Assembly (NCBI GenBank): GCA_000002435.2
Contig: CM018791.1
Direction: 5' to 3' (one strand)
Length of the DNA stretch: 64,000 nt
DNA from: Giardia intestinalis
Lineage: Eukaryota
In this document: positions 13,204-57,963 of the stretch, piece by piece
How the letters are laid out: each line of letters begins with the position of its first letter
How positions within the stretch are numbered: the stretch's first letter is position 1
Program-made: the position numbers and the translations under genes
Notes under the pieces: model-generated
The model's database searches: none
What the model saw: only the letters and a program-made list of their open reading frames with translations
Told to the model about the DNA's origin: nothing

Positions 13204-13260
13204 CGTTCAACACTCAGTCAGTCAGAGAAAGCCTTCTTAAAAATTGAAAAAAATTGCCCC

Positions 13261-15984: not shown

Positions 15985-16033
15985 CAAGAGGCTCTTGGAG
16001 ACTATAAACAGCAGCAAGTGCTCACAGATATGA

Positions 16034-31080: not shown

Positions 31081-31450
31081 TACGCTTGTAAATTCTCTGT
31101 TCACAGAAATTGTCCTCCAAGACCATTGCATAGACTGATTGTCCCGTGTGGAGCTTTTTCCTCTCCCCCTCCTTCTCTCTGCGTGCTTTTTCTCTGTTTG
31201 TGCGTGTGCACGCGTGTACATATGTCCAACAGCAGAGAGTTACTGTTTACTTCAATCAAAGTTCACTGATTGACATCTTTGTGACATTACCAACGCTCCT
31301 GTAACGCACAAACCGCAAAGAAGAAATCATAAGAAGAACACAACTACAGCAAGAAACCTTTACCCTCACACTCTAACCAATCATTGAGTGTAAGAGCAAA
31401 GGCAAGCCGAATTCGCGCGCCGCTGCAAGAAGGGAATGCTAGACCCTCAC

Positions 31451-32071
31451 CTACTGTGCCTCATATTCGTTCATGCTAGCTGCCTCCACGTTGGCACTGA
31501 CACTGCCCTGTGGAATGGCAGGAAGAGCCCCGCTGGCCTGGTCAGACTCAAGAACTTTGTTAATCACATCATTGATTTCGGCCTCGACGCGCGCATCCAT
31601 GTCATTGCTCTGAAGGGCGTTTTCAAACTGAGAGTTGAAGATGGAGTTGACTATGCCCATTCGCTCCAGCTCTCTGGACATGTTCACTATACCCTCTCTA
31701 AACCCATTAGTGCTGAATAGTTCGTTGATCCTCCCGACGACAGCGCCCGAGTCTTTGATAAGGGCGTGAATCTGCTGCTGAGTCGCCTGAAGCCTCACTT
31801 CTCTCTCAAGACTTGTGACCTGGACGATGAAGAGATTTATCTGATCCTTCACCTTCTTGGCGTCAAGACAGGACTTCGCAAGAGCTCTCATGCCTTCGGA
31901 ACAGTCGTAATTCAGCTTGGCCATCTCTCTCATCTCACGTTGAAGCCTGCTGACATGAGAGTCAATTTCCCTAATTTCCTTGTTGAAAGCGCTAACAGAA
32001 TCCCTCTGCAGTTGCTTCATGGCATCTAAGAGTTGCTGGACGGTGGCCTTCGGTGAGAGTTCCGCTCCCAT
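31451..32071 (-). CDS. ESCRT-III subunit, Snf7/CHMP family (CHMP1/Vps46-like or Vps2/Vps24-like)
   Basis: 206 aa. Basic helical N-terminal half and acidic C-terminal half with the Snf7 pattern (LLDAMKQLQRDSVSAFNKEIREIDSHVSRLQREMREMAK ... IVNMSRELERMGIVNSIFNSQFE). Confidence 0.6.
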   Translation of the reverse strand: MGAELSPKATVQQLLDAMKQLQRDSVSAFNKEIREIDSHVSRLQREMREMAKLNYDCSEGMRALAKSCLDAKKVKDQINLFIVQVTSLEREVRLQATQQQIHALIKDSGAVVGRINELFSTNGFREGIVNMSRELERMGIVNSIFNSQFENALQSNDMDARVEAEINDVINKVLESDQASGALPAIPQGSVSANVEAASMNEYEAQ

Positions 32072-32121
32072 TTTTTTCGATTATACTAAATTAACTTTTT
32101 TGGTAAGGGATGCTCAATTAC

Positions 32122-33801
32122 TTAATTGTCGACACTGGAAAGATCTATGGAAATAAAGCACGTTGTGCCAAGGGCAGAAACAAATAGCACAACACCAAGG
32201 ATGAAACTTACCCAGGAAAGGGCGCGAAGCCGCTTGAGCCTGCTCGTATTTCTAAAGATCTTCTCTTGAGCAAGCTGAACAGGGCCCACATAATAGTTGT
32301 TATAGTATCGCTTGAGCGTCTCTCCACCCTCTCCCAGCTCGGCCTCAAGGGACTGGCGCATGCTTCTTTGCTTTCGACTTCGCACAGGCTCCACCAGTGC
32401 TGCTGTGTCGTCATTATATTTGAGGAGCTTGTGCGGCTTTTCATGCTGCTCTATCGCTAGACGGAGACGGAGGGCTCGGCTAAATTGCTGATTGTAATGA
32501 CTTTTAGGGTTCAGAAATGAAAGCGTGAAGATTGCGGGGAAGATGAATACCAACGGAACACCTGCGAGCATCCCAGTCAGGTCCAGGACGATCCCCACGT
32601 CGTTGACAAAGCACCCTATCAGTGCGGTGAAGACGACGACGGTCAAAGAGATGAGGATGGACCACTTACGGCGCACATATTCTGTCTGAAATATCGCGTC
32701 TTCGACGGCCCGGCGGAGAGCAAAGCACACGACTGGAAAGGAGAACACAAGGACGAATATTATGCCTATGTCGGCAATCTCACTCCAGATGTGCGCAGAT
32801 GGGTACTCCGCCAGATTCAGGAGGATGTCTGGAAGACACTGGTCAGTGAACATAAAGTAGCCTGCCAGTCCGACCGTTACATTCAACAGTGCAACAACGA
32901 CTGCAACGATGACTATAATGTGCTTCATTTTCGTCAGGCTCTTGTTCCGTACTTCCTTGTAAATATTTAGACTGTTGTAGTGTCCACAAAACGTGATTGA
33001 CAGGGACGCCACTGCCAGGATCAGATTCAGTGAGGTGCTGACGGGGACAGGGCTTCCTTTCTTAATCGGACGAACAATATTTTTATTTATTATCGACGAA
33101 CTATTACTAAGGATTGCAAAGGACAAAATCATAACCATGAAGTATATGAGACATACTATGCTTAGCAGAGAGGTAAGCCATAAAGAGTTTAAGTTCCTCA
33201 ACAGTGAAAGGGGAAGGATCGCTACAAGGGAAACTGCAATGAGTGATAGCTGCCCGGCCCACTCCAGTTCGGGGTTTGCAGAGAAGAAGAACATGCTTTC
33301 ACGAATGAGCACAGTGAAGGCCATGAGAAGCCCGAGGGTCAGAGCAATGATGAGGATGTTGACCAAATTTCCGACGTGCCTGTTGTAGAGCTTCTGAGCG
33401 ATTGCACCGTAGTTGAAGACCTGCAGGGCATCTGAAATGAAGCTCAAAAGATAGAAGGAGATGGAGCCAATGACGATCACAAAGATCATCGAGAACAAAC
33501 CTATCACCCAGCCGGAGCGCATGACGGTATACGGAAGGGCCAAGAGTCCGGCGCCGCTGATCGTGTTTATTAGGTTAATGCTACTAGATAAGATGCTTGC
33601 TGTGCCCTCAAAGGGCACCACAAACTGATCCGAGATGTCGCTCATGAAGGACACTTCGGAGTCAGACGAGGGCTCAAATTGACTAAATGATAAATCCGGA
33701 CCAATATAACTGGTGTACATCCCCCGCTTTTCACCTGGGTGATGTGTGCGGATGGATCCCGCACGTGGGCGCACACGCTCGTTTGTGTTCGAAGGCTCCA
33801 T
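32122..33801 (-). CDS. Transmembrane amino acid transporter (Aa_trans/SLC38-AVT-like family)
   Basis: About 11 hydrophobic helices. N-terminal INTISGAGLLALPYTVMRSGWVIG motif typical of the Aa_trans family. Confidence 0.6.
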   Translation of the reverse strand: MEPSNTNERVRPRAGSIRTHHPGEKRGMYTSYIGPDLSFSQFEPSSDSEVSFMSDISDQFVVPFEGTASILSSSINLINTISGAGLLALPYTVMRSGWVIGLFSMIFVIVIGSISFYLLSFISDALQVFNYGAIAQKLYNRHVGNLVNILIIALTLGLLMAFTVLIRESMFFFSANPELEWAGQLSLIAVSLVAILPLSLLRNLNSLWLTSLLSIVCLIYFMVMILSFAILSNSSSIINKNIVRPIKKGSPVPVSTSLNLILAVASLSITFCGHYNSLNIYKEVRNKSLTKMKHIIVIVAVVVALLNVTVGLAGYFMFTDQCLPDILLNLAEYPSAHIWSEIADIGIIFVLVFSFPVVCFALRRAVEDAIFQTEYVRRKWSILISLTVVVFTALIGCFVNDVGIVLDLTGMLAGVPLVFIFPAIFTLSFLNPKSHYNQQFSRALRLRLAIEQHEKPHKLLKYNDDTAALVEPVRSRKQRSMRQSLEAELGEGGETLKRYYNNYYVGPVQLAQEKIFRNTSRLKRLRALSWVSFILGVVLFVSALGTTCFISIDLSSVDN

Positions 33802-33915: not shown

Positions 33916-36900
33916 TCACATATCTTGTAAGAAGAGCTCTGGATACGCACGGGTCAGATTTCCAATCTTCTCCTTCATAGATGCAACGTCTTGCATGGCA
34001 TTGTCTATATCGTTGAGAAGCCTTTGCCTGTCCTGCTCGGCCGCCTCGTCTTCTATGTACGCTGCATTTTGCTGCAGGACGCTTACTGATGCCTTTGTCG
34101 CTGTCGCACGAGACATTGCCTCTGTGCACTGCGTCTCGGCAGTAGTAATCGCGTGCTTTTCCTTCTGGATTGAGCGCCGCAGGTTATTCTCTGTCACAGA
34201 AGATTGGCGCCGGATTTGGTTGATTGCCTGTTCTAAGCGCTGCTTCTCAGCAGCCAAGGACTCACGCTCTACCGATAGCTTCTTTAGCTGAATAAGCTGA
34301 ACCTCCGCATCTGTGCACAGCTTGATTCCTCCTTTCACCGCAGCCTTAGAGAGCTCTGGAAGAAACTTCTTGGCAGCTAAACCATATATTGAAGCCCCTT
34401 TCCCTTCCACTGCTAGCTGAGTCCCAGCCTTGTCAAGACCTGGAAGAGAAGACTTATTACTATCACTGTCACCCATCTTTTCTGGGTGACGGGCAGACTC
34501 GACTCTATTTCTTTTGGCCGCGAGCCCATCAATCTGAGCGCGCAGCTCAGTTGTCTCTGATGTCTTATCTGCTATTATCGCCTGCAAGTTGTGCACTCTA
34601 CTCCCAAGAGTCAGCTCTATCTCCTTTCCGCGGGCAGAGGCTATCCATATATCCTTATTGTATTTGGAAAGCTCGTCTCCTATTGAGCTTAAAAGGTCTG
34701 ACAACTTCGTCCTGAGATGGGAAATGTACAGATTACTGAAGTTCCGTTCTAAATGCAAGCGTATACGCACATTTCCCCACTCCTCCGTTAGGTCCTTGAG
34801 CATGGCGTCATACTTGGCAATGATATCGTAGTCATATTCTCCGAGGTTGTCATCGCCGATCGCACCCGTGGCACGCTCTGATGCAGGGTTTTGCTGAGCA
34901 AAATCCTTGGATATATAGCCCAGTGTAGTCATGTACGACTTTCTCGTGTTCAGCACTGCCCTATGTATCGTATCCTGCTTACGGCTTAGTAATAGATATC
35001 TGTGGCGCTTTGCTAGGAGTATACTATCGTAGAGGAGAAGAATCCGGCGGCTCATCTCTGCATGAAGAGCGTTCCTGAGGCAAGTTTCCTTGATGTGCAA
35101 CGATTTGACATTGTTGTAGCATTCCAGTGTCATGGTTGTGAGCTCCTCAGTATAGGCAGTGGCTACAGGGTTCAGCGATGCCAAAGCTCTTCGTGTGATC
35201 TCCTCCCGTAGGGCATGCTTTCGGGAGTGGAAAGCCTCTATGTTTCGATAGTTTTGCTTATAAAGCTTCAGCCCAAGAGCTCCTGTGCGCTTACCAATAA
35301 TATCTGTGAAGTAACTTTCAATTGCAGCCATTGACCCTGCAACATCGACCGCCAGGTCGTTGAACTTCTCGGTGACATTCTCTACTCTGAAGAGGAGCAG
35401 CTCCAGGGAAAATCGCTCCTTTTCAAGTGAGCTAGTGCTCTCAGATAGAGGAGGCGTTGCAGAAGCTTTTGGCAATAGAGACGTGCTCACATAAGAGGGC
35501 ATGTCAAGTGTATAGCTTAGTGCGTTTGCATGGGCTGCAGTATACACACTGGATAGTGTATAAAGAAAAGACATCGGGTTCCTTATCTGAACCCCCAGCA
35601 GTTCGCGTTTGAGCTTAGATGCCAACCTAGACACCGTGAAATTGATGAAGCCAGACATTATCCGGATAATATACATGTTCATGAGCGAATAGTCATCGAA
35701 GCTCAAATATGCTTGATCGAGGCTATCAACTGCCTTAGCTTTTAACTGCTTTATAGCGGCATCTCCTCCCTCAATGATACCGGTCTCTAGTATGTCCACA
35801 AGTGCCTTTGTTGCTTTAATCTTTGCTGATAGAGCAGCACTGTTAGAAAGTCCCGCGTCCCTGAAGCCCGAGGTGCTTATAATATCGCTTGGCATGGTGT
35901 CGACGAGTCCTGAGGCCAGTCCCATGGATACTATTATAGATGGAGGGATTTGCTTGAGAGATGATATCCCAAAGGATGCCTTAGCATTTGAGCGCTCACG
36001 ACTAAGAACATTTGCCATCTGGCTTAGTCGCACCCCCTCGCCTATGGAAGACAGGAAGTTAATGTAAGCAGATCCTAAAGAGGAGGCACCGCTGCCAAAG
36101 TCTATTGTCGCATCTGTAAGGGCGTTGTACTTGTTAAGTCCTGCAAGATTGTTCTCAAGGTATCCAATTCTTCTCCAGAGCTGTCTCATGGCTATACATT
36201 TTATGTTTTCGCAAAGAACTTCTGTCTGGACGCTTCGCAGGATGAAAAGACACTCCTGGAAGGATTGCACATCGGCCTTAACCGCTACCTTGTCTGTTGT
36301 TCGCTCGGACATATATACAAAAAGTGGTAAAGCTAAGAATGTTTGCATATCCCGCTTCTTTAGAGCGACAAGTGTTGGACCTTTGCTTCTATCAAAGACG
36401 CTCCTCTTTTTGTTAAGCTCATCCTCTTGCTGGCGTGTTTCCTGTAGCTTTTTGATGAACGGTATACGCATCATTTGTAAGGCACGTTGCACCCCAAAGA
36501 TCCCAACGGGAGAGAGAAGTGCAGAGTGCTTATGGTTATCATTAAACCCGTGCAGCCGCAAGTAGAGCCTCTCGAGCCTGTCCTGCTCAATTATCCGGCT
36601 TGCTAATATGCTCTCTATCTTTTTTCCGGCCCACGATGACTTATCGCAAGACGGTGAGTTACTCTTGCCTTCTGCCATGTTTGTGCCCGCATCAGTCTCT
36701 ACCTCCGCACCATACCCGGGTTGCTCACGCTCCTTGTTGGACGAGCGAGTCAGTTCGGTTATGCAAAGAGCATCCAACTCTAGTGATGTTAGTCCAGCTA
36801 GCAGAGAGGCACTTTGATCTGTTATCATGGCAGGAAGATACAAAGACCCAGGGAATATCTCCGAGTCTGTCTGAGGGGAGCTAGGACTGGGGACAGCGCT

Positions 36901-39900
36901 CTCTCCAAAGTCCAAGTCAGTGCTCAGATTTGCCGTGCAAGCAACAGAGGCTCTAGTGTCGAGCACGCTGTGCTTACGTTGTTTGAGTAACGTGAAGTCA
37001 TAGCACAACCCAAACGGGAAATAGGCCCCAATAGAACCATTAATACCAAACCCATTGGCAAGAGCGCGGATGTGTAGAGGACTAGAGTAGGGGGCATTAT
37101 ATGTGTTGATGTAAGAGAAGCTTGTAAAAGCTCGTATCGTAGATGGAATATAGGGACGTATTGTTAAAGGAGAAGCTTGTTGGGAGCCACAAGATAAGGA
37201 CCCCGAAATATAGTGGAAAACGACAGGATCCAGTAGTAAGGGAAGCCGATTTGTCAGGCCAGAACTTGAAATGCCGATCTTGTAAAGCTGAATGCGAGCC
37301 ACAGCATTTGTTAATGCAAATCGAGAGTGGAAATTAGAGATGCCGTCCATAACAGGGATATTCATGCATGCCATGAGAGACATGGTAGGTCCTGCAGCAT
37401 AGGAGGAGGTAGGATGGGACGAAAATACTGATCCAATCTGATAGTCAGCGGTCCTTTTGATATTTGCTTGCAAAGGGTATGTGAAATTCAACTTCTTTTC
37501 ACCATCGTTATCTGGAATATTCTGGTCGCTAGGTTTCGAGCCATTTGTTTCTGTGTGCTTTTCTGGATCAAGAGTTACCACAACGTTACTGTTCCGAGTG
37601 CAATATGAGGCAATTGAAGTATGTGGATGCTCTATCGCCGAGCGCACCATCTTGTTATGGTAATAGAATGGGGTCTTAAGGGATACGTCGTATGGTTCTA
37701 AACATTGATGCTTCAGTTTTAACTCCGAACTGCTTCTAGAGACAGTATCTATGGAATTGCCTGGAAAAGGCGTATATGGGCTTGCGCCTGCGTTCTCTTT
37801 CATGCTTCTTTGAAGAGCAGTTGTGGCCAGCTTCGTATAGAGGGCAGTCGGGTGTACTTCTAAATTAAAGCCATGCATGCCGAGCTGATAGTTGTACCTC
37901 ACTGCCAGGATCTGGGCTGTCCGTAAAAATGAACGTGCAGCTAGCCCCAGTCCTTTATGGACATAACTATTTGTTGCATGGGCCACTGTGGACAGGAGAA
38001 GCAGGTCAACACGGTCTTTCATCTCAATCAGCTTCTTGACAAAGATGTCCAGCTTGCAGTACTCGAGATTCCGCTTGGCCGTGTCATACAATACATAGAT
38101 GTCATCCTGCGTGTTTTCTAAGGTACCCTCAAGCTCCATCTCCATCACTCGCGTCTTTGACTGCACTGTAATAGCCTCCCTATCCACCAGCACTGTCTCC
38201 TGGCGCTTCTCTCCCGTATTTATTGCTTCCTCTGGAAGAATATATGACGAGTTCTCCTTTATGTCACGGATCACCTTGGAGTCTTTAGGCCTAGCATACC
38301 CTTTCACAGAGATAACGCTCAGGTATTCATGGACCACACTTGTCAATGCGCAATTCATGCTCTGAAGCTCCTTGTCTTCCAGATAAATGCATGAAGGAGT
38401 GAGAAGTGCGAAGAGATCAGTAGCGCTGAGGGCTTTTGCTTGGTCACCCTGGTTAACGTGATCACCGGAGCGCACGAGAGGGCCATCAGACGGGAGATGC
38501 ACGTTGAGACTGTGGCCTTTGTTTAGGTGCACGGTTACGTGTTGCAATTCAGGCATGAACTTTAGTTCATCGTTAATTATGCCGGCAGCAAACCATATGT
38601 CGCTGGAGTTAAGCAAGGTCTTAATAACCGCATACTGTACCACAGAATCCAGGCACGTTAGATACACGAGTATGATTTCCAAAATGGATATCTGATTGCT
38701 TTCTAATTGAAACGTAATAGGGTGTGGTATCGTGAAAGGATTGCTCAGGAAGCCTTCTGCAGTGAGTATCATTTCGGTAGAGTTCATGTTTGGCGCTTGC
38801 TCCAGTACTCCTCGATACAAGGGAGGAGAGTCCAGCAAAATGGTGAGCTTGTCCTGGTTAATCTCTTGTAGCACGCTTCGAAGCGCAGAGAGCTGCCCCT
38901 TGATCTGCGCCGTTATGGCAGTCCGTTTTGTCTCGGTAAGAAGGGCTTGGCAGCACGTGTAAAAGAGGGCCTGACGGTATGCAAAGAGAGCAGCTGGATT
39001 GGGATCATCACTATGAAATTGCTTGGTACGATAGCGGAACTCTGCACTGGCCAACAATGCAATCTTGCTTAGTGTTTCTTCTGAGGACACATAGTAGATA
39101 TTAGACAAATCTAGTGGAACAGTACGGTCTGATGAAACAAAAAAGCTGACTTGGTCCTTGGTTGCATTAACAAGAGGAATGGAATTAGCGAAAAACAAGC
39201 CTACCTTCATGCACTTGTACTTGTGCATAAACGCCGACTGTGTCTCGACAGGATCCATTGCAATCAAGCTATTGACAAGGTGTCTCCTACGTGCAAAGGC
39301 ATCGTAATATCCATGAACAGCCTTACTCATCACTGCAAAGACAGCTGAAAACTGATTATTCCTAATTACAGCTGACCTGTACGAATTGAGGCATACCTCC
39401 GTGTGCGCTGTTCTCCCGAAGATCCCAGTTACCCCCTGAAGGAAATCGGATATGAGGGGAGAGTCGCAAACACCCTTTATGTTGCCGGAGTTCAGCACTT
39501 CTTGAAGCGTCTCTCCCAGGATCGTCGTCATCTTGGTAGATATTCCATAGCCAAGGTCAAAGTCTTCTGAGAGAAGGCACGTCAACAAATGTATTGGGCT
39601 CTCTGTGTTAACGGTGAGAAGGTAGTGCATTGCTTCAACGTCAATTGTTGCTAGAAATGGAAGATTGTTAAGGAGCGCATCATAGGATACATACTCCTTA
39701 TAGTTGTACGCTTCTGCTGCAATCTCCTCTGACATCTTGGACTGCATGTTAGTATTTTTTAGCACACTGAAGTCAGTGTAAGAGCGATTGGCCAGTACAT
39801 TCTTAGACGCTCGTGCAGTTGTGGCGGAAAAGCTGCTCGCAAGAACCAGCCGTGGAAATAGGGGTATGCAATTTCTAGAAATGACTTCGCCGGTGAACAC

Positions 39901-42900
39901 CTCCACCTGACTTAGCTCGACGTTTCTAAGAACATGCGAAAAAACAGTTGCTGTGGCCAGAAGATGCCTACTCCACAACAGGTTAAGGAGTAGAACAAGC
40001 AGGAAGAATGGCATAGGGAGAACGTCGGGGTATCCTTCCCAGATGCGAAGATCGGTGTCCTTCAGTAGATTTGAAACTTGTATTCGTGCTCCCTGGTCCA
40101 GATAAATAAAGATATCCTTCAGCGTCACAGACCGTGCAAAGTGCTCGGCCAGCGGGCCAAATTCAACGCTATCTAGTTCAATAAAGTCCGCTTCTATCGG
40201 GTCGATATCGTTTAAGTTCTTGCTTGGGCCATCTGGGTCATTGAATGCAGAGAAGTTAGCTGTTGAAAAGGTTGAAATACCCCCATAAGTTGTTGAAAAC
40301 ATAGCTGACCCCGGGCTCGCTGTCCCATCTCGCACAGAAAGACTAAGATCGTCTTTTGTCGTTACTCGTAGCGTAGAAGTGCCCACTGCACTGCCCACTG
40401 CACTTTGGTCTAGTACGCTCTTGGTTGCTACCTCAGAGGTGTTATTTTGAACTGACTTGGTTAAATTGTGTGCACTCCCAGTTGCGGATGGAGCCCTAGA
40501 CCGTAACTTTTTGCGAAGCGCACTGCCCGCGCGATCAGGTCGTCGCTTAGCAGCCTTTTGCTGCTGCTCTAAAATTTGCTGTGCGCGCTCCGCCTTTTCC
40601 TTGATGGTAAGGGTGCCCTTTCCTATGTATCCGCCTCCCGCCGGAACCATAAGCCCAATGAGACTGCATACAAGCCTCTCGGCCACAATGTTCTTGTCTG
40701 ACGAGACTGTGTTACAAATGGACTTGTCGCTATCTGCCTTCTTCTGCACCATTGCGGTTTCAAGAAGATGAATCAGAGGCCTAGAACAACCAAGTAACCC
40801 AGAATTTGTGAAGATCTGCGTGTTTTTGGGCAAAGTACTTCCATTAGCTCGCCACAACTTGATCAAGCGAACTGACTCCCTTGCAAACACCCGTGCGACA
40901 GAGAGTCTACAAGTAAGCGATAGCTTCGCCGTGTAAATTGGAAAGCTGTGGACTTTGTTCATGGGCGCACCATCTGAGGTAGAGAGAACGGTCTGAACAG
41001 TGGTGAAGAGTTTTGGGTTAGATTCTGAGATGAACGCTCCAAAGAGCTCTGCAGACGCTTGATTCAAGGCAAGAGGAATTCTGTACAGTTCTGAGAGAGT
41101 GGGAATGTATGCACCTACAACATGGCATCTTGCAGGAGTACAGGGTGACTGTATGCTGAAGAATGACTCGGGATCTTTCTCTAAGCTCTGGGGTACGTGT
41201 CCAAATGGAAAGACTGTGAACCCAGCATGCCTACTGGCCCACTTATCTTCATTCCTAGTTGACTTAGAGGTGTCCAAATCTTTTTGTGAGATAAAGGCAT
41301 GATCTACATGAGAGCTGACCTTCGTATAGTGGTGCTTCATCTCATGATCAATGGCAGAAGTTAGAATACCCACAAGATGGTGCATTGTTTTTATCTCAAC
41401 TTCTAAAGGATATGCAGGGTGTGGAAGCATTCTGACAGTTAGGGCCGCCGCAGAAATGACTGGAAGCTCGCTCACGCTGTGGTTTGCCAAGAGGCCCGAA
41501 TCCAGGTCGTCTACGTTCAGCTCATCGTTAAAGCAGGGCATGGATGGGTACGAAAGAAAGCACTTTGGCCTGTTTTTGGCTAAGTTGTAGATAACTTGTT
41601 GGATCTCCCTTGCCTTTCCTACATCATATGTATGCAGAAGTGACTCGTAAATGCACGATATAGCCTTTCTCTTAGCGCAAAGGTACTGAAGTTCGCGGGT
41701 TAGTACGTCGTACAGGATGCCCAGCCGATCTACAACCGTTTCCAGGGAGACGGAGTCTACTAGAGCTTTGTCTGCCTTCCCCAGATTTTCATACATGTAC
41801 TTGTTACCCAGCTTGGCTAGATTTGGAGAACTCTCTGGGTCCTTATTTTCATCTAAAAGGTACCGGTAGAAGCTGCTTCTCTTGAAGCAAAGCCGCAAGG
41901 CAGCTGTCTTCATGCGAGCAAAGACTCTGGAGATGTAGATGCTTATCGCAATGTGGTCATCACGCAGGATGGCAGCAACATCTGCTATTGCAGATTGGAA
42001 TACTAGCTTCTTACGACTAAGGGAGTACACGCCGTCCTCAGCAATCAGAAAGAGGTGATTGAGTGCACTATCGCTAAGCTTTTGCGGGATATCAGCTGTA
42101 TTCAGAGGTAGAGCGTCGTGTGCTGATGTCTGTAACGAGGCAGATGCAGATTCGCCTATAGCCATACTATCTTGAAGAGTCTGTGTCCTCTTGAGATAGA
42201 GGAGGCTGTACCAAAGTTTGTCCAGTGGTGAAATATAGCTTGGTAGACTGTCAGTATTGATCAAATCGTTATATGTGTACTCGCACTGCCCTGCTATACG
42301 ACAGGCTGCATCGCTCGTACCGGGGATGTTAGTGGGCGACCGGCAAATTACTTTTTCTCCAGCCGAACCACCTGAATTTCTTTGAGCCCCCAGCAGAGGG
42401 TCCTTAGCAAAGTTTGTGCTCGAATACTCAATGGGCTGTACATTCAAAATTACGTCTAGCTCTGTTTTTGCAGCACCATCTGGGGTCTCTTTCTCTGCTA
42501 ATTCAGCCTGCGATCTGCAATGTGATTGTGATACTCCTGGCTCCACATCCTCGTATTCAACGGGGGTCTTTCGCAGTTCTCGAAGAGGAGATCTTAGAGG
42601 AGACCTAGTCGTTTGTACTCCTAATGCTGTGGATGGGCGTGGTGGCAACACCCGTTTCGAGGACATGGCAGGACGCTGTGGAGACCTAGATGGACTGCAT
42701 GAGTCTTCGTGAGCATCCTTTGAATAAGTAATGTCGCTAACTCGTGAAAAGTCGCCTCCAAGAAAGTCAACTAATACGCGTGTATTAGCCAATATGGCAT
42801 GGATCTTTGTCATTTCTAACACCATGTCTGTCCACATCTTAGAGAGGGCAATGAACCGTATATAAGTCAGTGCTGTGTAGAGTATTTTGTACAAATACGA

Positions 42901-45426
42901 GTTTTCGCCATGCTCACAATCACTAGTAAGACAGTCCCATGCATCTATTCCTTTCTGTGCTTCGTCGCTGAGCAGACGAGCGCCTATGCTGGTCTTTTCA
43001 TTGGCGGAGCAGGTGGTGATAAGCCCAAGGACTATTGCACACAGCTTATCCAAAGACACTGAAACACTGGCTCCAGCAGTTGTGCAATATTTATGCGCAA
43101 TCCAGCCATTTGAACCGGACGAGTATGAACGTGCAGCATCCTTCCAAGCGTACATCACATTGCGATACTCTAGCCGATCCTTGTCATTCAGTAGAGTGCC
43201 TGGCAGACTATTGAGCTGTTCAACTTCAATCGGTGCACGAGGCTTTGAGGCATTTGGGTTGAGCAAGAACTTTTGAACCGAGTGAACAGAGGGACTGACG
43301 CGAAGAATGTCATCGTACACAAGCTCGGAGGACTGGAGACTCAGTATATTTAGTGAATCGTACAAGGACTGCTCTTGCTTAGACAGCCCGTCCGGATTGA
43401 GTCCAGACTTAGTGTTTATTCCATAAATGGATTGATTAAGACCATCGCCGCTGATGGAACTACTGGAGTCGCCTGTGTAGACTGCATATGGCGTAAGGTT
43501 ATCATACCCTGGGTCGGTATAGTATCGTCCCAGAGAGTCTCCCAGCGGTGGTTGATAAAGTTGGTCAAAGCTCCTATCGTCGTTGAGTAAGATGTAAATA
43601 TCATTATGTCGAGACTCCACAGATTGCCCCTGACCTGTTTTTGCGGAATCTAAGGCATCAGGTTCAAGTTCGTGGTCTACAGACTCGGGATTACCTCCAG
43701 CTGCACCTTCTGATCGAATCCCTTTGGAGAAGAAGTGAGGAAGCACGTTAGTTAGGTTACTAAATAATTCCTTAGAGAGATATAATAACTTTCCTGACAA
43801 AAGCTCTTTATCTGAGCTTCTGCCCTGCATGGACGTTGCAGAATCAATACTAGTTAGAATTTTTTGTATCAGTGCATCTGTATTGATCACAGTGCTCCGA
43901 GGAGCAGCTTTGTCAGTGGTAGAAACAGTCCCCTTGGATAGAGTGCTGGTGAAAAAGATGGACCAGTCTATTTCCTCTGTAATCCCCACCTCTTTGAGGT
44001 TGCCCAGAACCATCAGCGAGCTTACACACTCTTCAACAGTAAGTGGGAGGGTCGGGGGTGCTAGTTGCGTGAGATAAGGCAGAGTAGGCAGAGAGACCAT
44101 TCCAGGACGGATAGATGAGGATAGCGATTCGCAACTAGGTTTAAAGGTCAGTGCATTAATAATTGGAAGAGACATGTTGTGTGCTTTGAAGAGCTGCCTT
44201 GCTGATACGTATCTTATGAAGCTGCTGTCCACGCTAGCTGTGTCCTTCATGGTCCCTGCTCTTGTTGAGGAAGGGATAGTGGAAGGTTTGCTAAAGATAT
44301 TCTCTGTACCATTGGCTGAAACGAAGTTCTGGTGACTCATAGCGTGGGTGCTCGCGTCGTCCACGAAGGACAAGGATACGTCGTTAAATGTTCTGGCCTC
44401 TATCATTGCATCCAGTATTGTTAGCTCCTGGTGAACCAGCGAAGTATAGTCCAGTTGGGGAAGCATCTCGTCCAAAAAGCTGAGTGTCCAGACATGACGC
44501 CGAACAGAGGCCTTAACGTCTTCAGTGGTTATCCAGTGATCCACCCCCGCAAAGACCGCACTAATAGCGGTATTGAGACCCATGTTACCCACAGAGGCAC
44601 CATCAACGGCTGCTCGCTTCGTGCACGAAGCCAGATCGAAGGATACTGCGTTGGAGTCCAATCCCAAGACACGAAGCTCTGTCTTTAAGCGAGTAATAAT
44701 GGTATCTTTGCTCTCGAAGTTAACCTCTGATTCTAGGAAGCAAGAAAAGACCTTTGTGAGAAGATGATCTGGAAGAACAATGTGCGAATGGACAGCTAGA
44801 GAGACAAGCCTGGTCAATAAGTCAAGTGCGGCTTGCTTGTGTCGAGTAATCTCTGCCTGCAGGAGTGAGAGTCGACATAGATTCCGGGGGCTTGCAAACT
44901 GATTGGCTACGATGAGCTTGAACAGCAAGCTACGTTCTACATGCTTGAGTTGGGTATACGCAGCAAGATTATCTTGAATTAAAAAAGAGATGAAACTGGG
45001 TGAATCGTAGGCGCATGGCTGCCCGGCAGAAAGAGTTTGAGAGACCAGAATGTCTGCATATGAAGGGGTAGCAGGAGGCTTATTCCCCAACGTGTCATAC
45101 GCCCGAGCAAAGTAATTTGTCAAGAGTGCGTGGGAGTCCTCACCGTCCAGAAGATCACCGTTGGTGTACGGCAAGGATACACCGTAAAGCGCCCTGGCGA
45201 GAGTTTTGTCTACGTCACTCATATGCAGCAACGAGTCATGGGAGAATTCTGCAGAAGTTGCAGCAGCATTGGTGAGATTGTTATGCGGCCTGCGTGAAAT
45301 GTTGGCCAGAACACGTTCATCAGCAAGTTCATGTATGCGATATATGGAAGAGGTCAGAGACGAGTAAACAGTTTGTGAGTCACTCTTCACAGACCTAAGA
45401 ATCTCACTTATTAGCTCTGTGTCCAT
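33916..45426 (-). CDS. Giant hypothetical protein (3836 aa) encoded by a single uninterrupted 11.5-kb ORF; C-terminal coiled-coil region
   Basis: The ORF runs from ATG 45426 to the stop at 33916. No P-loop, kinase, BEACH or other catalytic motif was recognised by eye. The last ~350 aa are heptad-rich (LSVERESLAAEKQRLEQAINQIRRQ...). Confidence 0.75.
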   Translation of the reverse strand: MDTELISEILRSVKSDSQTVYSSLTSSIYRIHELADERVLANISRRPHNNLTNAAATSAEFSHDSLLHMSDVDKTLARALYGVSLPYTNGDLLDGEDSHALLTNYFARAYDTLGNKPPATPSYADILVSQTLSAGQPCAYDSPSFISFLIQDNLAAYTQLKHVERSLLFKLIVANQFASPRNLCRLSLLQAEITRHKQAALDLLTRLVSLAVHSHIVLPDHLLTKVFSCFLESEVNFESKDTIITRLKTELRVLGLDSNAVSFDLASCTKRAAVDGASVGNMGLNTAISAVFAGVDHWITTEDVKASVRRHVWTLSFLDEMLPQLDYTSLVHQELTILDAMIEARTFNDVSLSFVDDASTHAMSHQNFVSANGTENIFSKPSTIPSSTRAGTMKDTASVDSSFIRYVSARQLFKAHNMSLPIINALTFKPSCESLSSSIRPGMVSLPTLPYLTQLAPPTLPLTVEECVSSLMVLGNLKEVGITEEIDWSIFFTSTLSKGTVSTTDKAAPRSTVINTDALIQKILTSIDSATSMQGRSSDKELLSGKLLYLSKELFSNLTNVLPHFFSKGIRSEGAAGGNPESVDHELEPDALDSAKTGQGQSVESRHNDIYILLNDDRSFDQLYQPPLGDSLGRYYTDPGYDNLTPYAVYTGDSSSSISGDGLNQSIYGINTKSGLNPDGLSKQEQSLYDSLNILSLQSSELVYDDILRVSPSVHSVQKFLLNPNASKPRAPIEVEQLNSLPGTLLNDKDRLEYRNVMYAWKDAARSYSSGSNGWIAHKYCTTAGASVSVSLDKLCAIVLGLITTCSANEKTSIGARLLSDEAQKGIDAWDCLTSDCEHGENSYLYKILYTALTYIRFIALSKMWTDMVLEMTKIHAILANTRVLVDFLGGDFSRVSDITYSKDAHEDSCSPSRSPQRPAMSSKRVLPPRPSTALGVQTTRSPLRSPLRELRKTPVEYEDVEPGVSQSHCRSQAELAEKETPDGAAKTELDVILNVQPIEYSSTNFAKDPLLGAQRNSGGSAGEKVICRSPTNIPGTSDAACRIAGQCEYTYNDLINTDSLPSYISPLDKLWYSLLYLKRTQTLQDSMAIGESASASLQTSAHDALPLNTADIPQKLSDSALNHLFLIAEDGVYSLSRKKLVFQSAIADVAAILRDDHIAISIYISRVFARMKTAALRLCFKRSSFYRYLLDENKDPESSPNLAKLGNKYMYENLGKADKALVDSVSLETVVDRLGILYDVLTRELQYLCAKRKAISCIYESLLHTYDVGKAREIQQVIYNLAKNRPKCFLSYPSMPCFNDELNVDDLDSGLLANHSVSELPVISAAALTVRMLPHPAYPLEVEIKTMHHLVGILTSAIDHEMKHHYTKVSSHVDHAFISQKDLDTSKSTRNEDKWASRHAGFTVFPFGHVPQSLEKDPESFFSIQSPCTPARCHVVGAYIPTLSELYRIPLALNQASAELFGAFISESNPKLFTTVQTVLSTSDGAPMNKVHSFPIYTAKLSLTCRLSVARVFARESVRLIKLWRANGSTLPKNTQIFTNSGLLGCSRPLIHLLETAMVQKKADSDKSICNTVSSDKNIVAERLVCSLIGLMVPAGGGYIGKGTLTIKEKAERAQQILEQQQKAAKRRPDRAGSALRKKLRSRAPSATGSAHNLTKSVQNNTSEVATKSVLDQSAVGSAVGTSTLRVTTKDDLSLSVRDGTASPGSAMFSTTYGGISTFSTANFSAFNDPDGPSKNLNDIDPIEADFIELDSVEFGPLAEHFARSVTLKDIFIYLDQGARIQVSNLLKDTDLRIWEGYPDVLPMPFFLLVLLLNLLWSRHLLATATVFSHVLRNVELSQVEVFTGEVISRNCIPLFPRLVLASSFSATTARASKNVLANRSYTDFSVLKNTNMQSKMSEEIAAEAYNYKEYVSYDALLNNLPFLATIDVEAMHYLLTVNTESPIHLLTCLLSEDFDLGYGISTKMTTILGETLQEVLNSGNIKGVCDSPLISDFLQGVTGIFGRTAHTEVCLNSYRSAVIRNNQFSAVFAVMSKAVHGYYDAFARRRHLVNSLIAMDPVETQSAFMHKYKCMKVGLFFANSIPLVNATKDQVSFFVSSDRTVPLDLSNIYYVSSEETLSKIALLASAEFRYRTKQFHSDDPNPAALFAYRQALFYTCCQALLTETKRTAITAQIKGQLSALRSVLQEINQDKLTILLDSPPLYRGVLEQAPNMNSTEMILTAEGFLSNPFTIPHPITFQLESNQISILEIILVYLTCLDSVVQYAVIKTLLNSSDIWFAAGIINDELKFMPELQHVTVHLNKGHSLNVHLPSDGPLVRSGDHVNQGDQAKALSATDLFALLTPSCIYLEDKELQSMNCALTSVVHEYLSVISVKGYARPKDSKVIRDIKENSSYILPEEAINTGEKRQETVLVDREAITVQSKTRVMEMELEGTLENTQDDIYVLYDTAKRNLEYCKLDIFVKKLIEMKDRVDLLLLSTVAHATNSYVHKGLGLAARSFLRTAQILAVRYNYQLGMHGFNLEVHPTALYTKLATTALQRSMKENAGASPYTPFPGNSIDTVSRSSSELKLKHQCLEPYDVSLKTPFYYHNKMVRSAIEHPHTSIASYCTRNSNVVVTLDPEKHTETNGSKPSDQNIPDNDGEKKLNFTYPLQANIKRTADYQIGSVFSSHPTSSYAAGPTMSLMACMNIPVMDGISNFHSRFALTNAVARIQLYKIGISSSGLTNRLPLLLDPVVFHYISGSLSCGSQQASPLTIRPYIPSTIRAFTSFSYINTYNAPYSSPLHIRALANGFGINGSIGAYFPFGLCYDFTLLKQRKHSVLDTRASVACTANLSTDLDFGESAVPSPSSPQTDSEIFPGSLYLPAMITDQSASLLAGLTSLELDALCITELTRSSNKEREQPGYGAEVETDAGTNMAEGKSNSPSCDKSSWAGKKIESILASRIIEQDRLERLYLRLHGFNDNHKHSALLSPVGIFGVQRALQMMRIPFIKKLQETRQQEDELNKKRSVFDRSKGPTLVALKKRDMQTFLALPLFVYMSERTTDKVAVKADVQSFQECLFILRSVQTEVLCENIKCIAMRQLWRRIGYLENNLAGLNKYNALTDATIDFGSGASSLGSAYINFLSSIGEGVRLSQMANVLSRERSNAKASFGISSLKQIPPSIIVSMGLASGLVDTMPSDIISTSGFRDAGLSNSAALSAKIKATKALVDILETGIIEGGDAAIKQLKAKAVDSLDQAYLSFDDYSLMNMYIIRIMSGFINFTVSRLASKLKRELLGVQIRNPMSFLYTLSSVYTAAHANALSYTLDMPSYVSTSLLPKASATPPLSESTSSLEKERFSLELLLFRVENVTEKFNDLAVDVAGSMAAIESYFTDIIGKRTGALGLKLYKQNYRNIEAFHSRKHALREEITRRALASLNPVATAYTEELTTMTLECYNNVKSLHIKETCLRNALHAEMSRRILLLYDSILLAKRHRYLLLSRKQDTIHRAVLNTRKSYMTTLGYISKDFAQQNPASERATGAIGDDNLGEYDYDIIAKYDAMLKDLTEEWGNVRIRLHLERNFSNLYISHLRTKLSDLLSSIGDELSKYNKDIWIASARGKEIELTLGSRVHNLQAIIADKTSETTELRAQIDGLAAKRNRVESARHPEKMGDSDSNKSSLPGLDKAGTQLAVEGKGASIYGLAAKKFLPELSKAAVKGGIKLCTDAEVQLIQLKKLSVERESLAAEKQRLEQAINQIRRQSSVTENNLRRSIQKEKHAITTAETQCTEAMSRATATKASVSVLQQNAAYIEDEAAEQDRQRLLNDIDNAMQDVASMKEKIGNLTRAYPELFLQDM

Positions 45427-45492
45427 AGATTGCGAAACCTGCAGAGAACAGACTAGCGATCAGGAAGGCCCGGGATTTAAAATTTTAAAGCC
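45427..45492. promoter_or_regulatory. 66-bp divergent promoter between the giant gene and the CFAP20-domain gene (contains aaaattttaaag)
   Basis: Outward-facing ATGs at 45426 (minus) and 45493 (plus). Confidence 0.45.
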
Positions 45493-47370
45493 ATGTTCAA
45501 GCGGGCGTTCCAGGGAGGACCCTTCATTTCGCTGCTTGAAATAAAGGGCCAAGCACCTGCACAAGGATGGAACATGAAGAAGGCTACTATTGCCCGTAAT
45601 TACAACAAGGAGATGAAAACTTATGTTCTCGATGTTGACGGCCCCGTTGGCTCAAAGATTACAATGCCCGAGGCGCCCGAGAAACAAGTTCTTGGCATCA
45701 TACAACCGTTTCTCTTGATGCAATTATTTATTCCCAAAGACCAGATTTTCTCCTTGAACTTAGGTGTTGCCGATTGCTCCAAAAACAGAATTAGACTATA
45801 CTTTTCAACAGCTAATAAAGTAGTAAAGATAACCTCTCTCCATGCCAGGTTGCCACTGCACGCAGTCGCAGGTGCGTGGTCATGTCTCGTCTTCGATTTA
45901 ATGGAGATTACTCGCAGCTGCTTTCCGAATTCAGAATTTGCCAGTCTGAATTCTGTTGAGATAATGCCGTGCTGTACCTTACTGCGCGTTTTCACTGTCA
46001 AGACATGCCCTCTTCCCACCCTGGAGCTCTATTGTCCGAAAGACGAAGAAGACGCGCGCGCAAATCCGCGTATGCCAAAGCCCCGGTTTAGCCTTAGGCA
46101 GTATGCGCCTTTAGACAAGAAGGTGGAGATTGGGATTGATGTGCACGTACAGGTGTTGGATGAATTTTACCTCTCGCTCTTTCGTGAAAACAAGCCAAAT
46201 ACAGACCTTGCTGTACGGGACAGAGATACTCTCCTAGAGGCCCGCAAAGAATTCATCCCTGGTTATAGGGAAGCAGAAGAGAAGCCTCCTGAATCGGTCA
46301 AAATTGTAAAGAATGCACCACTAATTCAGATTGATGCAGGTGCCCATACCGCTGCCAAGACTGTGAGATCAGATCCTGATGCAACAGTATCTCCGAAAGA
46401 CTCTGATCCCGTCCCGGAACGGAAGTATAACGTTTTGGCTAGCGAATCCCACGATCAGCCTCCTACACATATTAAGCAAAGCACAGATGCCAGGGCAGCG
46501 AAGGGGCGCCAGGTGGCAAAGCCTTCTGGGACAGGCAGCATTAGAGCAGCTATAGAGTTCAATGCCAAGCAAGATGATAGCAGTGTGGCAGCTGCATCTA
46601 TTGGTCGTGAGAAGAGTCAAGATTTTGTGCGGCAAACCAGCAAAATACCAAAGATGAGTGCACAATGTGACACTACTAATAGCGTAATAGATCTGACTCT
46701 CAACGCCATCCCCGTTGTGCTAAATCCAGAGCAGTGTGGAAAGAGCGCAACTAGTGCAAATGGGGTCACCACTGATAGAGCTACTACGCCAGTTACACGG
46801 CTCAAGGGAGTGCGGGTTGGTCTTGTGGACGATGAAGTTCTCGGGAGCATGGTCGAGACCCAGAACTATGCTGTTCTGGGAGATGCAAATATGCCAACTG
46901 ATACCGCTGCTCCAGGCAGCAACAAAATGGATACCAGCAAAATGGCTAGGAGCATGGTCAATACCCTTGTAACTTCTAACCGGACAATACCACAGGATCT
47001 TATCGACACTGTCTATAGTGTCGCTACAAATGAAGGGCAGCCAGACTCTGAAGACATAGAGGATTATGACGGCGGAGTAGACGACCTTGGGGGGCAATTT
47101 ACAAATGCACACGCAAGTGTAGTTAACGATGATGCCAATGAAGGTGATAGCGACAGCTCCTACAGCTACTACTCAACGGACAATGATAATGATGACAATG
47201 ACGATATCCCTGATCCGGCCCCAGATGGGGAGACGCACTCTGCTGTGCCAGATCCAGCTACCAATCTCCGCCTTGCCAGTCAGCTATCTGGTGGAATAAG
47301 ATACGATGAAAACACAGGTGTATACTTAGAGATTGATGATTCCAATATCCCTGGGCCTATGGACGAATAG
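45493..47370 (+). CDS. CFAP20/DUF667-domain protein paralog (N-terminal ~190 aa BUG22-like fold) with a long acidic, D/N-rich C-terminal extension; CFAP20DC-like
   Basis: The N-terminus aligns along the whole CFAP20 (BUG22) domain: MFKRAFQGGPFISLL, LGIIQPFLLMQLFIP, RIRLYFSTANKVVKITSLHARLPLHAVAGAWSCLVFDLMEITRSCF, LLRVFTVKTCPLPTLELYCP. The tail has DNDNDDNDD runs. Confidence 0.7.
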   Translation: MFKRAFQGGPFISLLEIKGQAPAQGWNMKKATIARNYNKEMKTYVLDVDGPVGSKITMPEAPEKQVLGIIQPFLLMQLFIPKDQIFSLNLGVADCSKNRIRLYFSTANKVVKITSLHARLPLHAVAGAWSCLVFDLMEITRSCFPNSEFASLNSVEIMPCCTLLRVFTVKTCPLPTLELYCPKDEEDARANPRMPKPRFSLRQYAPLDKKVEIGIDVHVQVLDEFYLSLFRENKPNTDLAVRDRDTLLEARKEFIPGYREAEEKPPESVKIVKNAPLIQIDAGAHTAAKTVRSDPDATVSPKDSDPVPERKYNVLASESHDQPPTHIKQSTDARAAKGRQVAKPSGTGSIRAAIEFNAKQDDSSVAAASIGREKSQDFVRQTSKIPKMSAQCDTTNSVIDLTLNAIPVVLNPEQCGKSATSANGVTTDRATTPVTRLKGVRVGLVDDEVLGSMVETQNYAVLGDANMPTDTAAPGSNKMDTSKMARSMVNTLVTSNRTIPQDLIDTVYSVATNEGQPDSEDIEDYDGGVDDLGGQFTNAHASVVNDDANEGDSDSSYSYYSTDNDNDDNDDIPDPAPDGETHSAVPDPATNLRLASQLSGGIRYDENTGVYLEIDDSNIPGPMDE

Positions 47371-57772: not shown

Positions 57773-57963
57773 GTCTGTAAGAACACCTGAGTGTCTGATG
57801 TACTTTGTAAAAGGGCCTACCCACATCTGAGCAAAGTTCAACAGCGTAGTATTATTCTGCTGATTCTGCTTGAACAAATGTCAAGCTTCTTTTTGGGCGT
57901 GTCCGCGGCGTCTGGGCTGGGACTGGAGCCTTGGGGAGGCACGCAGCAGCCAGGGTCGGCAGC

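What the first reader, a model, noticed from the sequence alone, without database searches (positions are those of the whole stretch)
33916..45426. Single uninterrupted 11.5-kb ORF encoding a 3836-aa protein with no recognisable catalytic domain
An ORF this long cannot arise by chance at ~49% GC, so it is a real gene. Scanning by eye found no P-loop, kinase, BEACH, Vps13 or dynein signature, only a C-terminal coiled coil. Giant lineage-specific proteins in diplomonads are often cytoskeletal (ventral disc or axoneme associated). It shares a 66-bp divergent promoter with the CFAP20-domain gene.
Basis: seen in the sequence. Interest (0 to 1): 0.5.

Follow-up and report, generated by a model that had tools for sequence, protein, structure and literature searches.

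The report
Giant orphan diplomonad protein gene
This is a real, intact 11.5-kb Giardia gene (already annotated as hypothetical protein GL50803_95908) for a 424-kDa protein that I found only in Giardia and its diplomonad relatives; what it does remains unknown.

Summary
Window 33916..45426 (minus strand) is one stop-free ORF of 3836 codons with an ATG start. It is identical to Giardia intestinalis WB GL50803_95908 ("hypothetical protein"). Six independent assemblage-A assemblies give the same 3836-aa length, and dN/dS is 0.11. Apparent frameshifts in two other assemblies are homopolymer read errors. Collinear single-ORF orthologues exist in G. intestinalis P15, G. muris, an unnamed Giardia-like genome, Spironucleus salmonicida and Hexamita inflata. 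An exhaustive phmmer search with aa 1084-2283 against 1.84 billion proteins found nothing outside this group. Pfam and PDB sequence searches gave no significant hit. AlphaFold2 models were too poor (pLDDT 36-38) to assign a fold.

Anatomy: about eight conserved blocks, predicted mostly helical, separated by Giardia-specific disordered inserts. The last ~490 aa form long helices and coiled coil. There is no conserved transmembrane segment and no Walker A motif.

Best reading (about 0.4): a non-enzymatic, diplomonad-restricted structural scaffold, probably cytoskeletal. A ventral-disc-specific role is unlikely, because Hexamita and Spironucleus have no disc. The 66-bp head-to-head arrangement with the CFA20-domain gene is real but is not conserved in G. 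muris. This is an ordinary, already annotated orphan gene of low to moderate interest.

The parts
33916..45426 (-). Complete CDS of GL50803_95908: 3836 aa, 424 kDa, pI 6.5. The stop codon is at 33916-33918.
44377..45426 (-). Conserved block N1, aa 1-350. It is aligned in all diplomonad orthologues, with M1 invariant.
42727..44079 (-). Conserved block N2, aa 450-900. Conservation is weaker, and most within-species amino-acid variation falls in aa 1-1083.
42277..42726 (-). Giardia-specific insert, aa 901-1050, rich in Ser/Pro/Arg and with the composition of a disordered region. It holds four S/T-P-x-K/R sites at aa 911, 915, 942 and 946. It is largely absent from Spironucleus and Hexamita.
40567..42177 (-). 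Conserved block M1, aa 1084-1620. It is the most constrained part within assemblage A: 1 variable site in 592 aa, against 32 in aa 1-1083. It is predicted helical.
40177..40566 (-). Giardia-specific basic disordered linker, aa 1621-1750 (pI 9.45). It contains KRRPDRAGSALRKKLRSR. No secondary structure is predicted, and it is absent from the Hexamitinae orthologues.
38527..40176 (-). Conserved block M2, aa 1751-2300. It is the best conserved across diplomonads, especially aa 2100-2300 with the AQIKGxLSxLRxxLxEINQDK and IPHPV motifs. It is predicted helical.
36937..38076 (-). Conserved blocks M3 and M4, aa 2451-2600 and 2700-2830, with a variable loop between them.
36610..36936 (-). Acidic, variable insert, aa 2831-2939 (pI 4.15).
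35392..36609 (-). Conserved block C1, aa 2940-3345, with the SSW...IIEQDRLERLYLRLHG and SVFxRSKGP motifs. It is predicted helical.
33919..35391 (-). C-terminal long-helix and coiled-coil region, aa 3346-3836. AF2 predicts helices of 70, 91 and 107 residues at aa 3349-3639. The strongest heptad segment is aa 3701-3828. The C-terminal YPELF motif is conserved.
45427..45492 (.). 66-bp intergenic spacer shared head-to-head with the CFA20-domain gene GL50803_7328. Its only AT-rich element (ATTTAAAATTTTAAA, 45475-45489) lies 3 nt upstream of the neighbour's ATG and 49 nt upstream of the giant gene's ATG.
   Evidence: That it acts as a bidirectional initiator is inference.

Best explanation
The ORF is the intact, expressed gene GL50803_95908 of Giardia intestinalis WB. 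It encodes a 424-kDa, non-enzymatic, soluble protein of a family detected only in diplomonads (Giardia, Spironucleus, Hexamita).

Shown: it is built of about eight conserved blocks that are predicted to be mostly alpha-helical. In Giardia these are separated by lineage-specific, low-complexity inserts, and the protein ends in about 490 aa of very long helices and coiled coil.

Inferred: it works as a large structural scaffold. The C-terminal coiled coil would mediate self-association or docking onto a filament system, most probably the microtubule-based flagellar/karyomastigont cytoskeleton that all diplomonads share. The helical blocks would offer binding surfaces. The Ser/Pro/basic inserts would be regulatory (phosphorylation) or provide charge-based contacts. 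It is not specific to the ventral disc.
For: Real gene:
- The sequence is identical to the annotated protein, and six assemblies give the same 3836-aa length.
- dN/dS is 0.11, from 63 synonymous and 23 non-synonymous differences.
- Chance is excluded.
- Trace peptides were seen in a GlActin pull-down table (F3/G1/DSP1, one replicate).

Family and distribution:
- An exhaustive phmmer search with aa 1084-2283 against 1.84e9 representatives returned only 9 proteins. The five full-length ones are from G. intestinalis P15, G. muris, an unnamed Logan contig, S. salmonicida and H. inflata. Three are short, near-identical fragments. One is an unlabelled 490-aa MetaClust fragment closest to Hexamita.
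- The full-length orthologues align collinearly from end to end.

No enzyme signature:
- Pfam found nothing on the whole protein, on segments, or on any of the seven family members.
- There is no Walker A motif.
- PDB profile searches gave nothing below E=0.04.

Architecture:
- DSSP on both AF2 models is almost all helix, with unstructured inserts.
- Heptad segments cluster in aa 3327-3828.
- No conserved hydrophobic segment of transmembrane strength exists.
- hhalign finds no internal repeats.

Prior: in the 608-protein Giardia localisation atlas, 193 proteins localise to flagella or basal bodies and 133 to the disc, median body and related structures, against 79 nuclear, 104 membrane and 73 cytoplasmic (PMC13322205).
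Against: - There is no localisation, interaction or phenotype data for this protein or any orthologue.
- It is absent from the text-held supplements of the disc proteome and of several other proteomic and RNA-seq papers.
- The cytoskeletal assignment rests on a biased prior and on a coiled coil, which also occurs in tethers, nuclear proteins and others.
- Both AF2 models have low confidence (pLDDT 36 and 38), so even 'alpha-helical scaffold' is a secondary-structure statement and not a fold.
- Only aa 1084-2283 were searched exhaustively. The N- and C-terminal thirds were tested only against Pfam and PDB.
Confidence: 0.4

Rival explanations
1. It is an extremely diverged orthologue of a pan-eukaryotic giant helical scaffold, for example a trafficking, nuclear-pore, chromatin or ribosome-biogenesis subunit. 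Its sequence would have drifted beyond HMMER detection on the long diplomonad branch.
For: Many Giardia proteins are too diverged for sequence methods; about 40% of the proteome is uncharacterised (PMC13322205 abstract). The protein is largely helical. Only one third of it was searched exhaustively, and only as a single sequence.
Against: A 7-sequence family profile that includes the less derived Hexamita and Spironucleus proteins hits nothing in the PDB at E<0.04, although the PDB sequence set searched is large (177,635 distinct chains). Pfam is negative for all seven members. One search returned nothing labelled as non-diplomonad. hhalign finds no HEAT/ARM-like internal repeats.
Confidence: 0.25
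2. It is a conserved axonemal or basal-body protein, functionally coupled to the adjacent CFA20-domain gene through the shared 66-bp bidirectional promoter.
For: The genes are head-to-head, 66 bp apart, with a single AT-rich element between them. All diplomonads are flagellated. The best (non-significant) Foldseek hits of the low-confidence model are long-helix chains from axoneme structures.
Against: The neighbour is not conserved. G. muris has an unrelated 629-aa gene upstream, and contig L002 has a different neighbourhood. The family profile does not match any chain of the solved axoneme or central-pair structures. The Foldseek hits have E>0.2 and TM about 0.05 on a pLDDT-38 model, so they are meaningless. 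The neighbour is itself not canonical CFAP20.
Confidence: 0.12
3. It is a ventral-disc structural protein (a disc-associated protein).
For: Only the prior that many Giardia hypothetical proteins are disc-associated.
Against: Orthologues cover the full length in Hexamita inflata and Spironucleus salmonicida, which have no ventral disc (the lack of a disc is established knowledge). The protein is not found in the text-held supplements of the disc proteome paper.
Confidence: 0.05
4. It carries an unrecognised catalytic domain (a novel enzyme) within one of the conserved blocks.
For: Block M1 (aa 1084-1675) is unusually constrained within the species: 1 variable site against an expected ~11. Invariant polar residues exist in several blocks.
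Against: There is no Pfam or PDB similarity and no nucleotide-binding motif. Predicted secondary structure is long helices rather than alpha/beta enzyme-like folds.
Confidence: 0.05
5. It is an annotation or assembly artefact: two or more genes fused, or a pseudogene.
For: Some Logan assemblies split the ORF into fragments.
Against: Those splits are 1-nt homopolymer indels with 0 mismatches. Six assemblies are intact. The G. muris (3670 aa) and L002 (3781 aa) orthologues are also single ORFs. Purifying selection acts along the whole length.
Confidence: 0.01

Closest known systems
Diplomonad orthologues: GLP15_4518 (G. intestinalis P15), DHA2_153551, GMRT_10947 (G. muris), SS50377_21050 (Spironucleus salmonicida), CAL6106760/CAL6102054 (Hexamita inflata)
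   Same: They are collinear from the first Met to the C-terminal YPELF motif, at 90%, 46%, 30% and 27% identity in the searched segment. All are single ORFs, all are annotated 'hypothetical', and all lack Pfam domains.
   Different: The Hexamitinae proteins are ~1100 aa shorter. They lack the Giardia disordered inserts at aa ~900-1050, 1600-1750, 2300-2450 and 2830-2940.
Large coiled-coil cytoskeletal proteins of Giardia (e.g. median body protein, axoneme-associated GASP-180), recalled from general knowledge and not tested here
   Same: They are lineage-restricted, non-enzymatic and contain long coiled coil.
   Different: Here coiled coil is only the last ~13% of the protein. The remaining ~3300 aa are non-repetitive helical blocks without ankyrin or other known repeats. 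No sequence similarity to these proteins was tested or found.
Giant alpha-helical scaffold proteins of other eukaryotes (HEAT/ARM solenoids)
   Same: Its size is in the range of such scaffolds (size comparison from general knowledge). It is predicted to be predominantly helical and has no catalytic motif.
   Different: There are no detectable internal repeats and no Pfam or PDB match. The fold is not established, because the AF2 models are unusable.
Toxoplasma mitoribosomal protein annotated 'HECT-domain containing' (PDB 9g6k_Lf, 9i05_Ad)
   Same: There is a 70-residue similarity to aa ~2486-2556 at E 0.04-0.08, recurring in two profile searches.
   Different: The hit is not significant. The entries are apicomplexan mitoribosomes, and Giardia has no mitochondrial genome (PMC13643923 abstract) and hence no mitoribosome (inference). 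I judged it a chance match.

Membership tests
P-loop NTPase giants (dynein heavy chain, midasin, RNF213) | Walker A/B motifs and AAA+ Pfam domains | tested here: not met
   There is no [AG]xxxxGK[ST] motif and no AAA or dynein Pfam hit at E<=10.
PIKK / protein kinases | PI3_PI4_kinase, FAT, FATC or Pkinase domains; HRD/DFG catalytic motifs in context | tested here: not met
   There is no Pfam hit and no HRD motif. Two isolated DFG tripeptides are present. The C-terminus is a coiled coil ending in YPELFLQDM, not FATC.
VPS13 / bridge-like lipid transfer proteins; BEACH proteins | Chorein_N, VPS13 repeat or BEACH Pfam domains; beta-rich groove | tested here: not met
   There is no Pfam hit in any of the seven family members. 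Predicted secondary structure is almost entirely helical (low-confidence models).
Conserved axonemal proteins (components of solved doublet, central-pair and radial-spoke structures) | Detectable sequence homology to a chain of a solved axoneme | tested here: not met
   phmmer and three family-profile hmmsearches against all PDB chains gave no axonemal hit at E<=10.
Conserved axonemal proteins (components of solved doublet, central-pair and radial-spoke structures) | Localisation to axonemes or basal bodies | not testable with these tools
   The protein is not in the 608-protein localisation atlas supplements.
Giardia ventral-disc-associated proteins (DAPs) | Presence in isolated disc proteome or disc localisation | tested here: not met
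   The ID is absent from the five text-held supplements of PMC3243723 and from the atlas. This is a weak test, because large low-abundance proteins are easily missed.
Giardia ventral-disc-associated proteins (DAPs) | Phyletic restriction to disc-bearing Giardia | tested here: not met
   Full-length orthologues exist in Spironucleus and Hexamita.
Coiled-coil structural proteins | Extended heptad-repeat segments free of Pro/Gly | tested here: met
   Heptad segments at 3327-3377, 3556-3599, 3609-3647 and 3701-3828 exceed the 99.9% shuffled threshold. AF2 predicts 70-107-residue helices. This applies to the C-terminal ~13% only.
HEAT/ARM-type alpha-solenoids | Tandem repeated helical hairpins detectable by profile self-comparison or Pfam | tested here: not met
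   hhalign of 10 conserved blocks all-against-all gave probabilities <=3.3%. BLASTP self-comparison found only the identity hit. There are no Pfam repeat hits. A structural solenoid cannot be excluded without a good model.
Integral membrane proteins | Conserved transmembrane helix | tested here: not met
   The highest 19-residue Kyte-Doolittle windows (<=1.8) contain polar or charged residues and are not conserved in position among orthologues.

The most novel reading that the evidence does not exclude
The protein founds a structurally new, diplomonad-specific family. At 2715-3836 aa, every full-length member exceeds the ~2700-residue length limit I recall for AlphaFold DB entries (recalled, not checked), so the family may never have been seen by structure-based clustering. 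In this reading it scaffolds a lineage-defining feature of diplomonads, such as the doubled karyomastigont or the attachment of cytoplasmic axonemes to the nuclei.
Probability: 0.2. Interest if true: 0.5.

Novelty: already known. Interest (0 to 1): 0.25.

Why it matters
The gene model has been public since the first Giardia genome and is annotated as a hypothetical protein, so its existence is not news. It illustrates the roughly 40% of the Giardia proteome that lacks any functional annotation. A 424-kDa protein under purifying selection and conserved across parasitic and free-living diplomonads is costly to make, so it presumably does something important for diplomonad cell architecture. It is too long for routine episomal tagging and was not in the localisation atlas I checked. 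The block map given here says which pieces to model and where a tag or knock-down should be aimed. Nothing here bears on a long-standing open question.

Tried and rejected
1. The search for homologous proteins gave no usable result. The full-length query timed out. Queries of aa 1751-2960 and aa 1751-2210 each returned '8000 candidates, none scored', not even the query's own cluster. I judged the tool uninformative for this protein and left the third search unused.
2. Both AlphaFold2 runs failed to give a usable model. With 6-sequence alignments, aa 1084-2283 gave pLDDT 36.1 and aa 2446-3645 gave pLDDT 38.0. I used them only for secondary structure.
3. Foldseek of the second model against the PDB gave a best E of 0.23 and TM about 0.05. 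This is meaningless, so I did not spend further fold searches.
4. PDB sequence searches found nothing significant. I ran phmmer plus three family profiles.
5. The recurrent Toxoplasma mitoribosome hit (E 0.04-0.08) was rejected as chance.
6. Two scans of JGI metagenome contigs, with Giardia-first and Hexamita-first alignments, matched 189 pattern stretches, and none was confirmed.
7. No internal repeats were found by BLASTP self-comparison or by hhalign block against block.
8. The literature gave almost nothing. The ID appears only as a PCR-marker locus (PMC3429382). Orthologue IDs appear in no paper.
9. Supplements of seven papers were searched. Four were negative. Two had no files held as text. 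One held a trace-count entry in a GlActin pull-down, which I do not take as evidence of actin association.
10. Conserved synteny with the CFA20-domain gene was rejected.
Full report
**Observation**

Window 33916..45426 on the minus strand is a single ORF of 3836 codons. It starts at ATG and ends at TGA. An in-frame TGA lies 36 nt upstream of the ATG. The first Met is an invariant column in the alignment of all orthologues, so the start is well placed.

The other five frames of the same 11.5 kb contain 117-244 stops each. The longest stop-free run in 50 shuffles of the whole window is 259 codons. Base composition gives P of about 1e-86 for 3836 stop-free codons. GC is 0.47-0.48. The next ORF upstream, divergent on the plus strand, starts at 45493, so the spacer is exactly 66 bp.

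**Identity**

The translation is identical to Giardia intestinalis WB GL50803_95908 (XP_001706902.1, UniProt A8BHP4, 'hypothetical protein'). The window is therefore Giardia assemblage A.

The 90%-identity cluster holds six full-length copies from independent assemblies, all of 3836 aa, differing at 23-41 residues. Against one of them (L001), 63 synonymous and 23 non-synonymous differences give dN/dS = 0.11.

Several Logan assemblies break the ORF into fragments. In the two contigs I examined, every difference from the window is a single-base indel inside a homopolymer run, with zero mismatches over 5.2 and 9.8 kb. These are read errors, not alleles.

**Relatives**

The word-indexed protein search failed for this protein. 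It did not even find the query's own cluster.

I chose the segment for the one exhaustive search from within-species variation. In the assemblage-A copies, aa 1084-1675 has 1 variable site, against 32 in aa 1-1083 and 19 in aa 3000-3836. phmmer with aa 1084-2283 against 1.84 billion representative proteins found nine proteins at E<=0.001:
- G. intestinalis P15 GLP15_4518 (3826 aa, 90% identity).
- G. muris GMRT_10947 (3670 aa, 46%).
- An unnamed protein from Logan run SRR31929897 (3781 aa, 37%, on a 61%-GC contig).
- Spironucleus salmonicida SS50377_21050 (2742 aa, 30%).
- Hexamita inflata (2715 and 2719 aa, 27%).
- A 490-aa MetaClust fragment closest to Hexamita.
- Three short, near-identical fragments.

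Nothing in the list is labelled as coming from outside diplomonads. Two scans of JGI metagenome contigs added nothing. The seven full-length proteins align collinearly from Met1 to a conserved C-terminal YPELF motif.

**Anatomy**

Conservation across G. muris, the Logan species, Spironucleus and Hexamita defines these blocks: aa 1-350, 450-900, 1084-1620, 1751-2300 (strongest at 2100-2300), 2451-2600, 2700-2830, 2940-3345 and 3346-3836.

They are separated by segments that are poorly aligned or absent in the ~1100-aa-shorter Hexamitinae proteins, at roughly aa 900-1050, 1600-1750, 2300-2450, 2600-2650 and 2830-2940. These inserts have the composition of disordered regions:
- aa 901-1050 is Ser/Pro/Arg-rich, with four S/T-P-x-K/R sites.
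- aa 1621-1750 is basic (pI 9.45).
- aa 2831-2939 is acidic (pI 4.15).

AlphaFold2 with 6-sequence alignments gave unusable models (mean pLDDT 36.1 and 38.0). The DSSP strings are almost entirely helix, with no structure in the inserts. aa 3349-3639 form three helices of 70, 91 and 107 residues.

A heptad scan against a shuffled null places the significant segments mainly at 3327-3377, 3556-3599, 3609-3647 and, most strongly, 3701-3828.

There is no Walker A motif, no conserved hydrophobic segment of transmembrane strength, and no internal repeat by BLASTP or by hhalign between blocks.

**Comparison with known families**

- Pfam found no family at or near threshold. This holds for the whole protein, for five segments at E<=10, and for all seven family members. 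Only coiled-coil-type noise appeared in the last ~130 aa.
- PDB sequences gave nothing below E=0.04. I ran phmmer and profiles of the full family and of two 1200-aa segments.
- The one recurrent weak hit covers aa ~2486-2556 and matches a Toxoplasma protein in 9g6k/9i05 at E 0.04-0.08. It belongs to apicomplexan mitoribosomes. Giardia has no mitoribosome, so I treat it as chance.
- Foldseek of the low-confidence model gave E>0.2 and TM about 0.05 and carries no information.
- The family is thus a sequence orphan. Because the models failed, its fold is not established.

**Neighbourhood**

The divergent neighbour (GL50803_7328, 625 aa) has a CFA20 domain in aa 1-186 (E 3.6e-45), followed by a long tail. 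It has no phmmer hit to any PDB chain at E<=1e-3. That is not what canonical CFAP20, present in many solved axonemes, would give. It is a divergent CFA20-domain paralogue.

The only AT-rich element in the 66-bp spacer (45475-45489) abuts the neighbour's ATG and lies 49 nt from the giant gene's ATG. That it serves both genes is inference.

The pairing is not conserved. In G. muris the upstream divergent gene is an unrelated 629-aa protein, and in the Logan contig the neighbourhood is different again. The adjacency therefore says nothing about function.

**Experimental record**

The ID appears in searchable full text only as a PCR-marker locus ('hypothetical protein', PMC3429382). Orthologue IDs appear nowhere.

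It is absent from the text-held supplements of:
- the 608-protein localisation atlas;
- the ventral-disc proteome;
- a mitosome interactome;
- a metronidazole-resistance proteome;
- a strand-specific RNA-seq study.

It occurs once at trace spectral counts (3/1/1) in a GlActin pull-down table. I take that as weak evidence that the protein is made and nothing more.

**Interpretation**

Shown:
- It is a real gene under purifying selection.
- I found it only in diplomonads.
- It has no recognisable catalytic or membrane feature.
- It is predicted to be mostly helical, with Giardia-specific disordered inserts and a C-terminal coiled-coil region.

Inferred: it is a structural scaffold that self-associates or docks through the C-terminal coiled coil. 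The most probable site is the microtubule-based flagellar/karyomastigont cytoskeleton common to all diplomonads. The prior from the localisation atlas, where more than half of the tagged proteins are cytoskeletal, favours this, but that collection is biased. I put it at about 0.4.

A ventral-disc-specific role is disfavoured by the Hexamita and Spironucleus orthologues. A conserved axonemal component is disfavoured by the lack of any match to solved axoneme chains. A diverged pan-eukaryotic scaffold remains a serious rival at about 0.25, because only a third of the protein was searched exhaustively and no fold could be obtained.

**Verdict**

The finding is correct as an observation and reasonable but unproven as an interpretation. 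The gene is already annotated and is an ordinary example of Giardia's many orphan proteins. Interest is low to moderate (0.25). The most useful products here are the ruling-out of artefacts, the phyletic range, the block map, and the removal of the disc and CFAP20-neighbour arguments.

Noticed in passing
window 45493-47370 (+): GL50803_7328 is a 625-aa protein with a CFA20 domain only in aa 1-186, followed by a long acidic, low-complexity tail. It has no PDB hit at E<=1e-3, so it is a divergent CFA20-domain paralogue (CFAP20DC-like) rather than canonical CFAP20.
   Followed up: partly
L004 (Logan SRR26410988_25) and L005 (Logan SRR22286255_220): Public Logan assemblies split the giant ORF into 4-8 called genes. 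All 12 differences from the window are 1-nt indels in homopolymer runs with no mismatches, so they are sequencing-platform errors that inflate the cluster with fragment 'proteins'.
   Followed up: yes
L002 (Logan SRR31929897, 21.2 kb, 61% GC), gene at 4876-16221: An unnamed Giardia-like diplomonad genome carries a 3781-aa orthologue that is 32-37% identical to WB. Its neighbours include ODAD1_CC, rhodanese, TB2/DP1/HVA22 and SapB_2 genes. The organism was not identified.
   Followed up: no
window 59300-62000: About 2.7 kb has no ORF of 100 aa or more. It lies in a GC-elevated stretch (0.52-0.60 over 58-64 kb, against ~0.47 elsewhere). There is no Rfam hit and no tandem repeat. It is flanked by a kinase-domain ORF (57931-58800, listed with a TTG start, possibly truncated) and a 236-aa VSP-fragment ORF (62966-63676, Pfam VSP 6e-14). 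It may be degenerate VSP or pseudogene territory.
   Followed up: partly
window 54825-57131 (-): A 768-aa ORF has a kinesin-associated protein (KAP) domain (E 8e-38). It is probably the kinesin-2 accessory subunit.
   Followed up: no
window 29398-33801: The downstream neighbours are a DEAD-box helicase (29398-31080 +), an Snf7/ESCRT-III protein (31451-32071 -) and an Aa_trans amino-acid transporter (32122-33801 -). The same gene order is seen in an independent assemblage-A contig (L001).
   Followed up: partly
window 42277-42726 (aa 901-1050 of the giant protein): Four S/T-P-x-K/R sites cluster at aa 911, 915, 942 and 946, inside a Giardia-specific Ser/Pro/Arg-rich insert. It is a candidate cell-cycle phosphoregulated region.
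   Followed up: no
tool behaviour: the search for homologous proteins returned exactly 8000 candidates and no hit, not even the query's own 99%-identical cluster representative. For orphan eukaryotic proteins a negative from this tool is not evidence of absence.
   Followed up: partly
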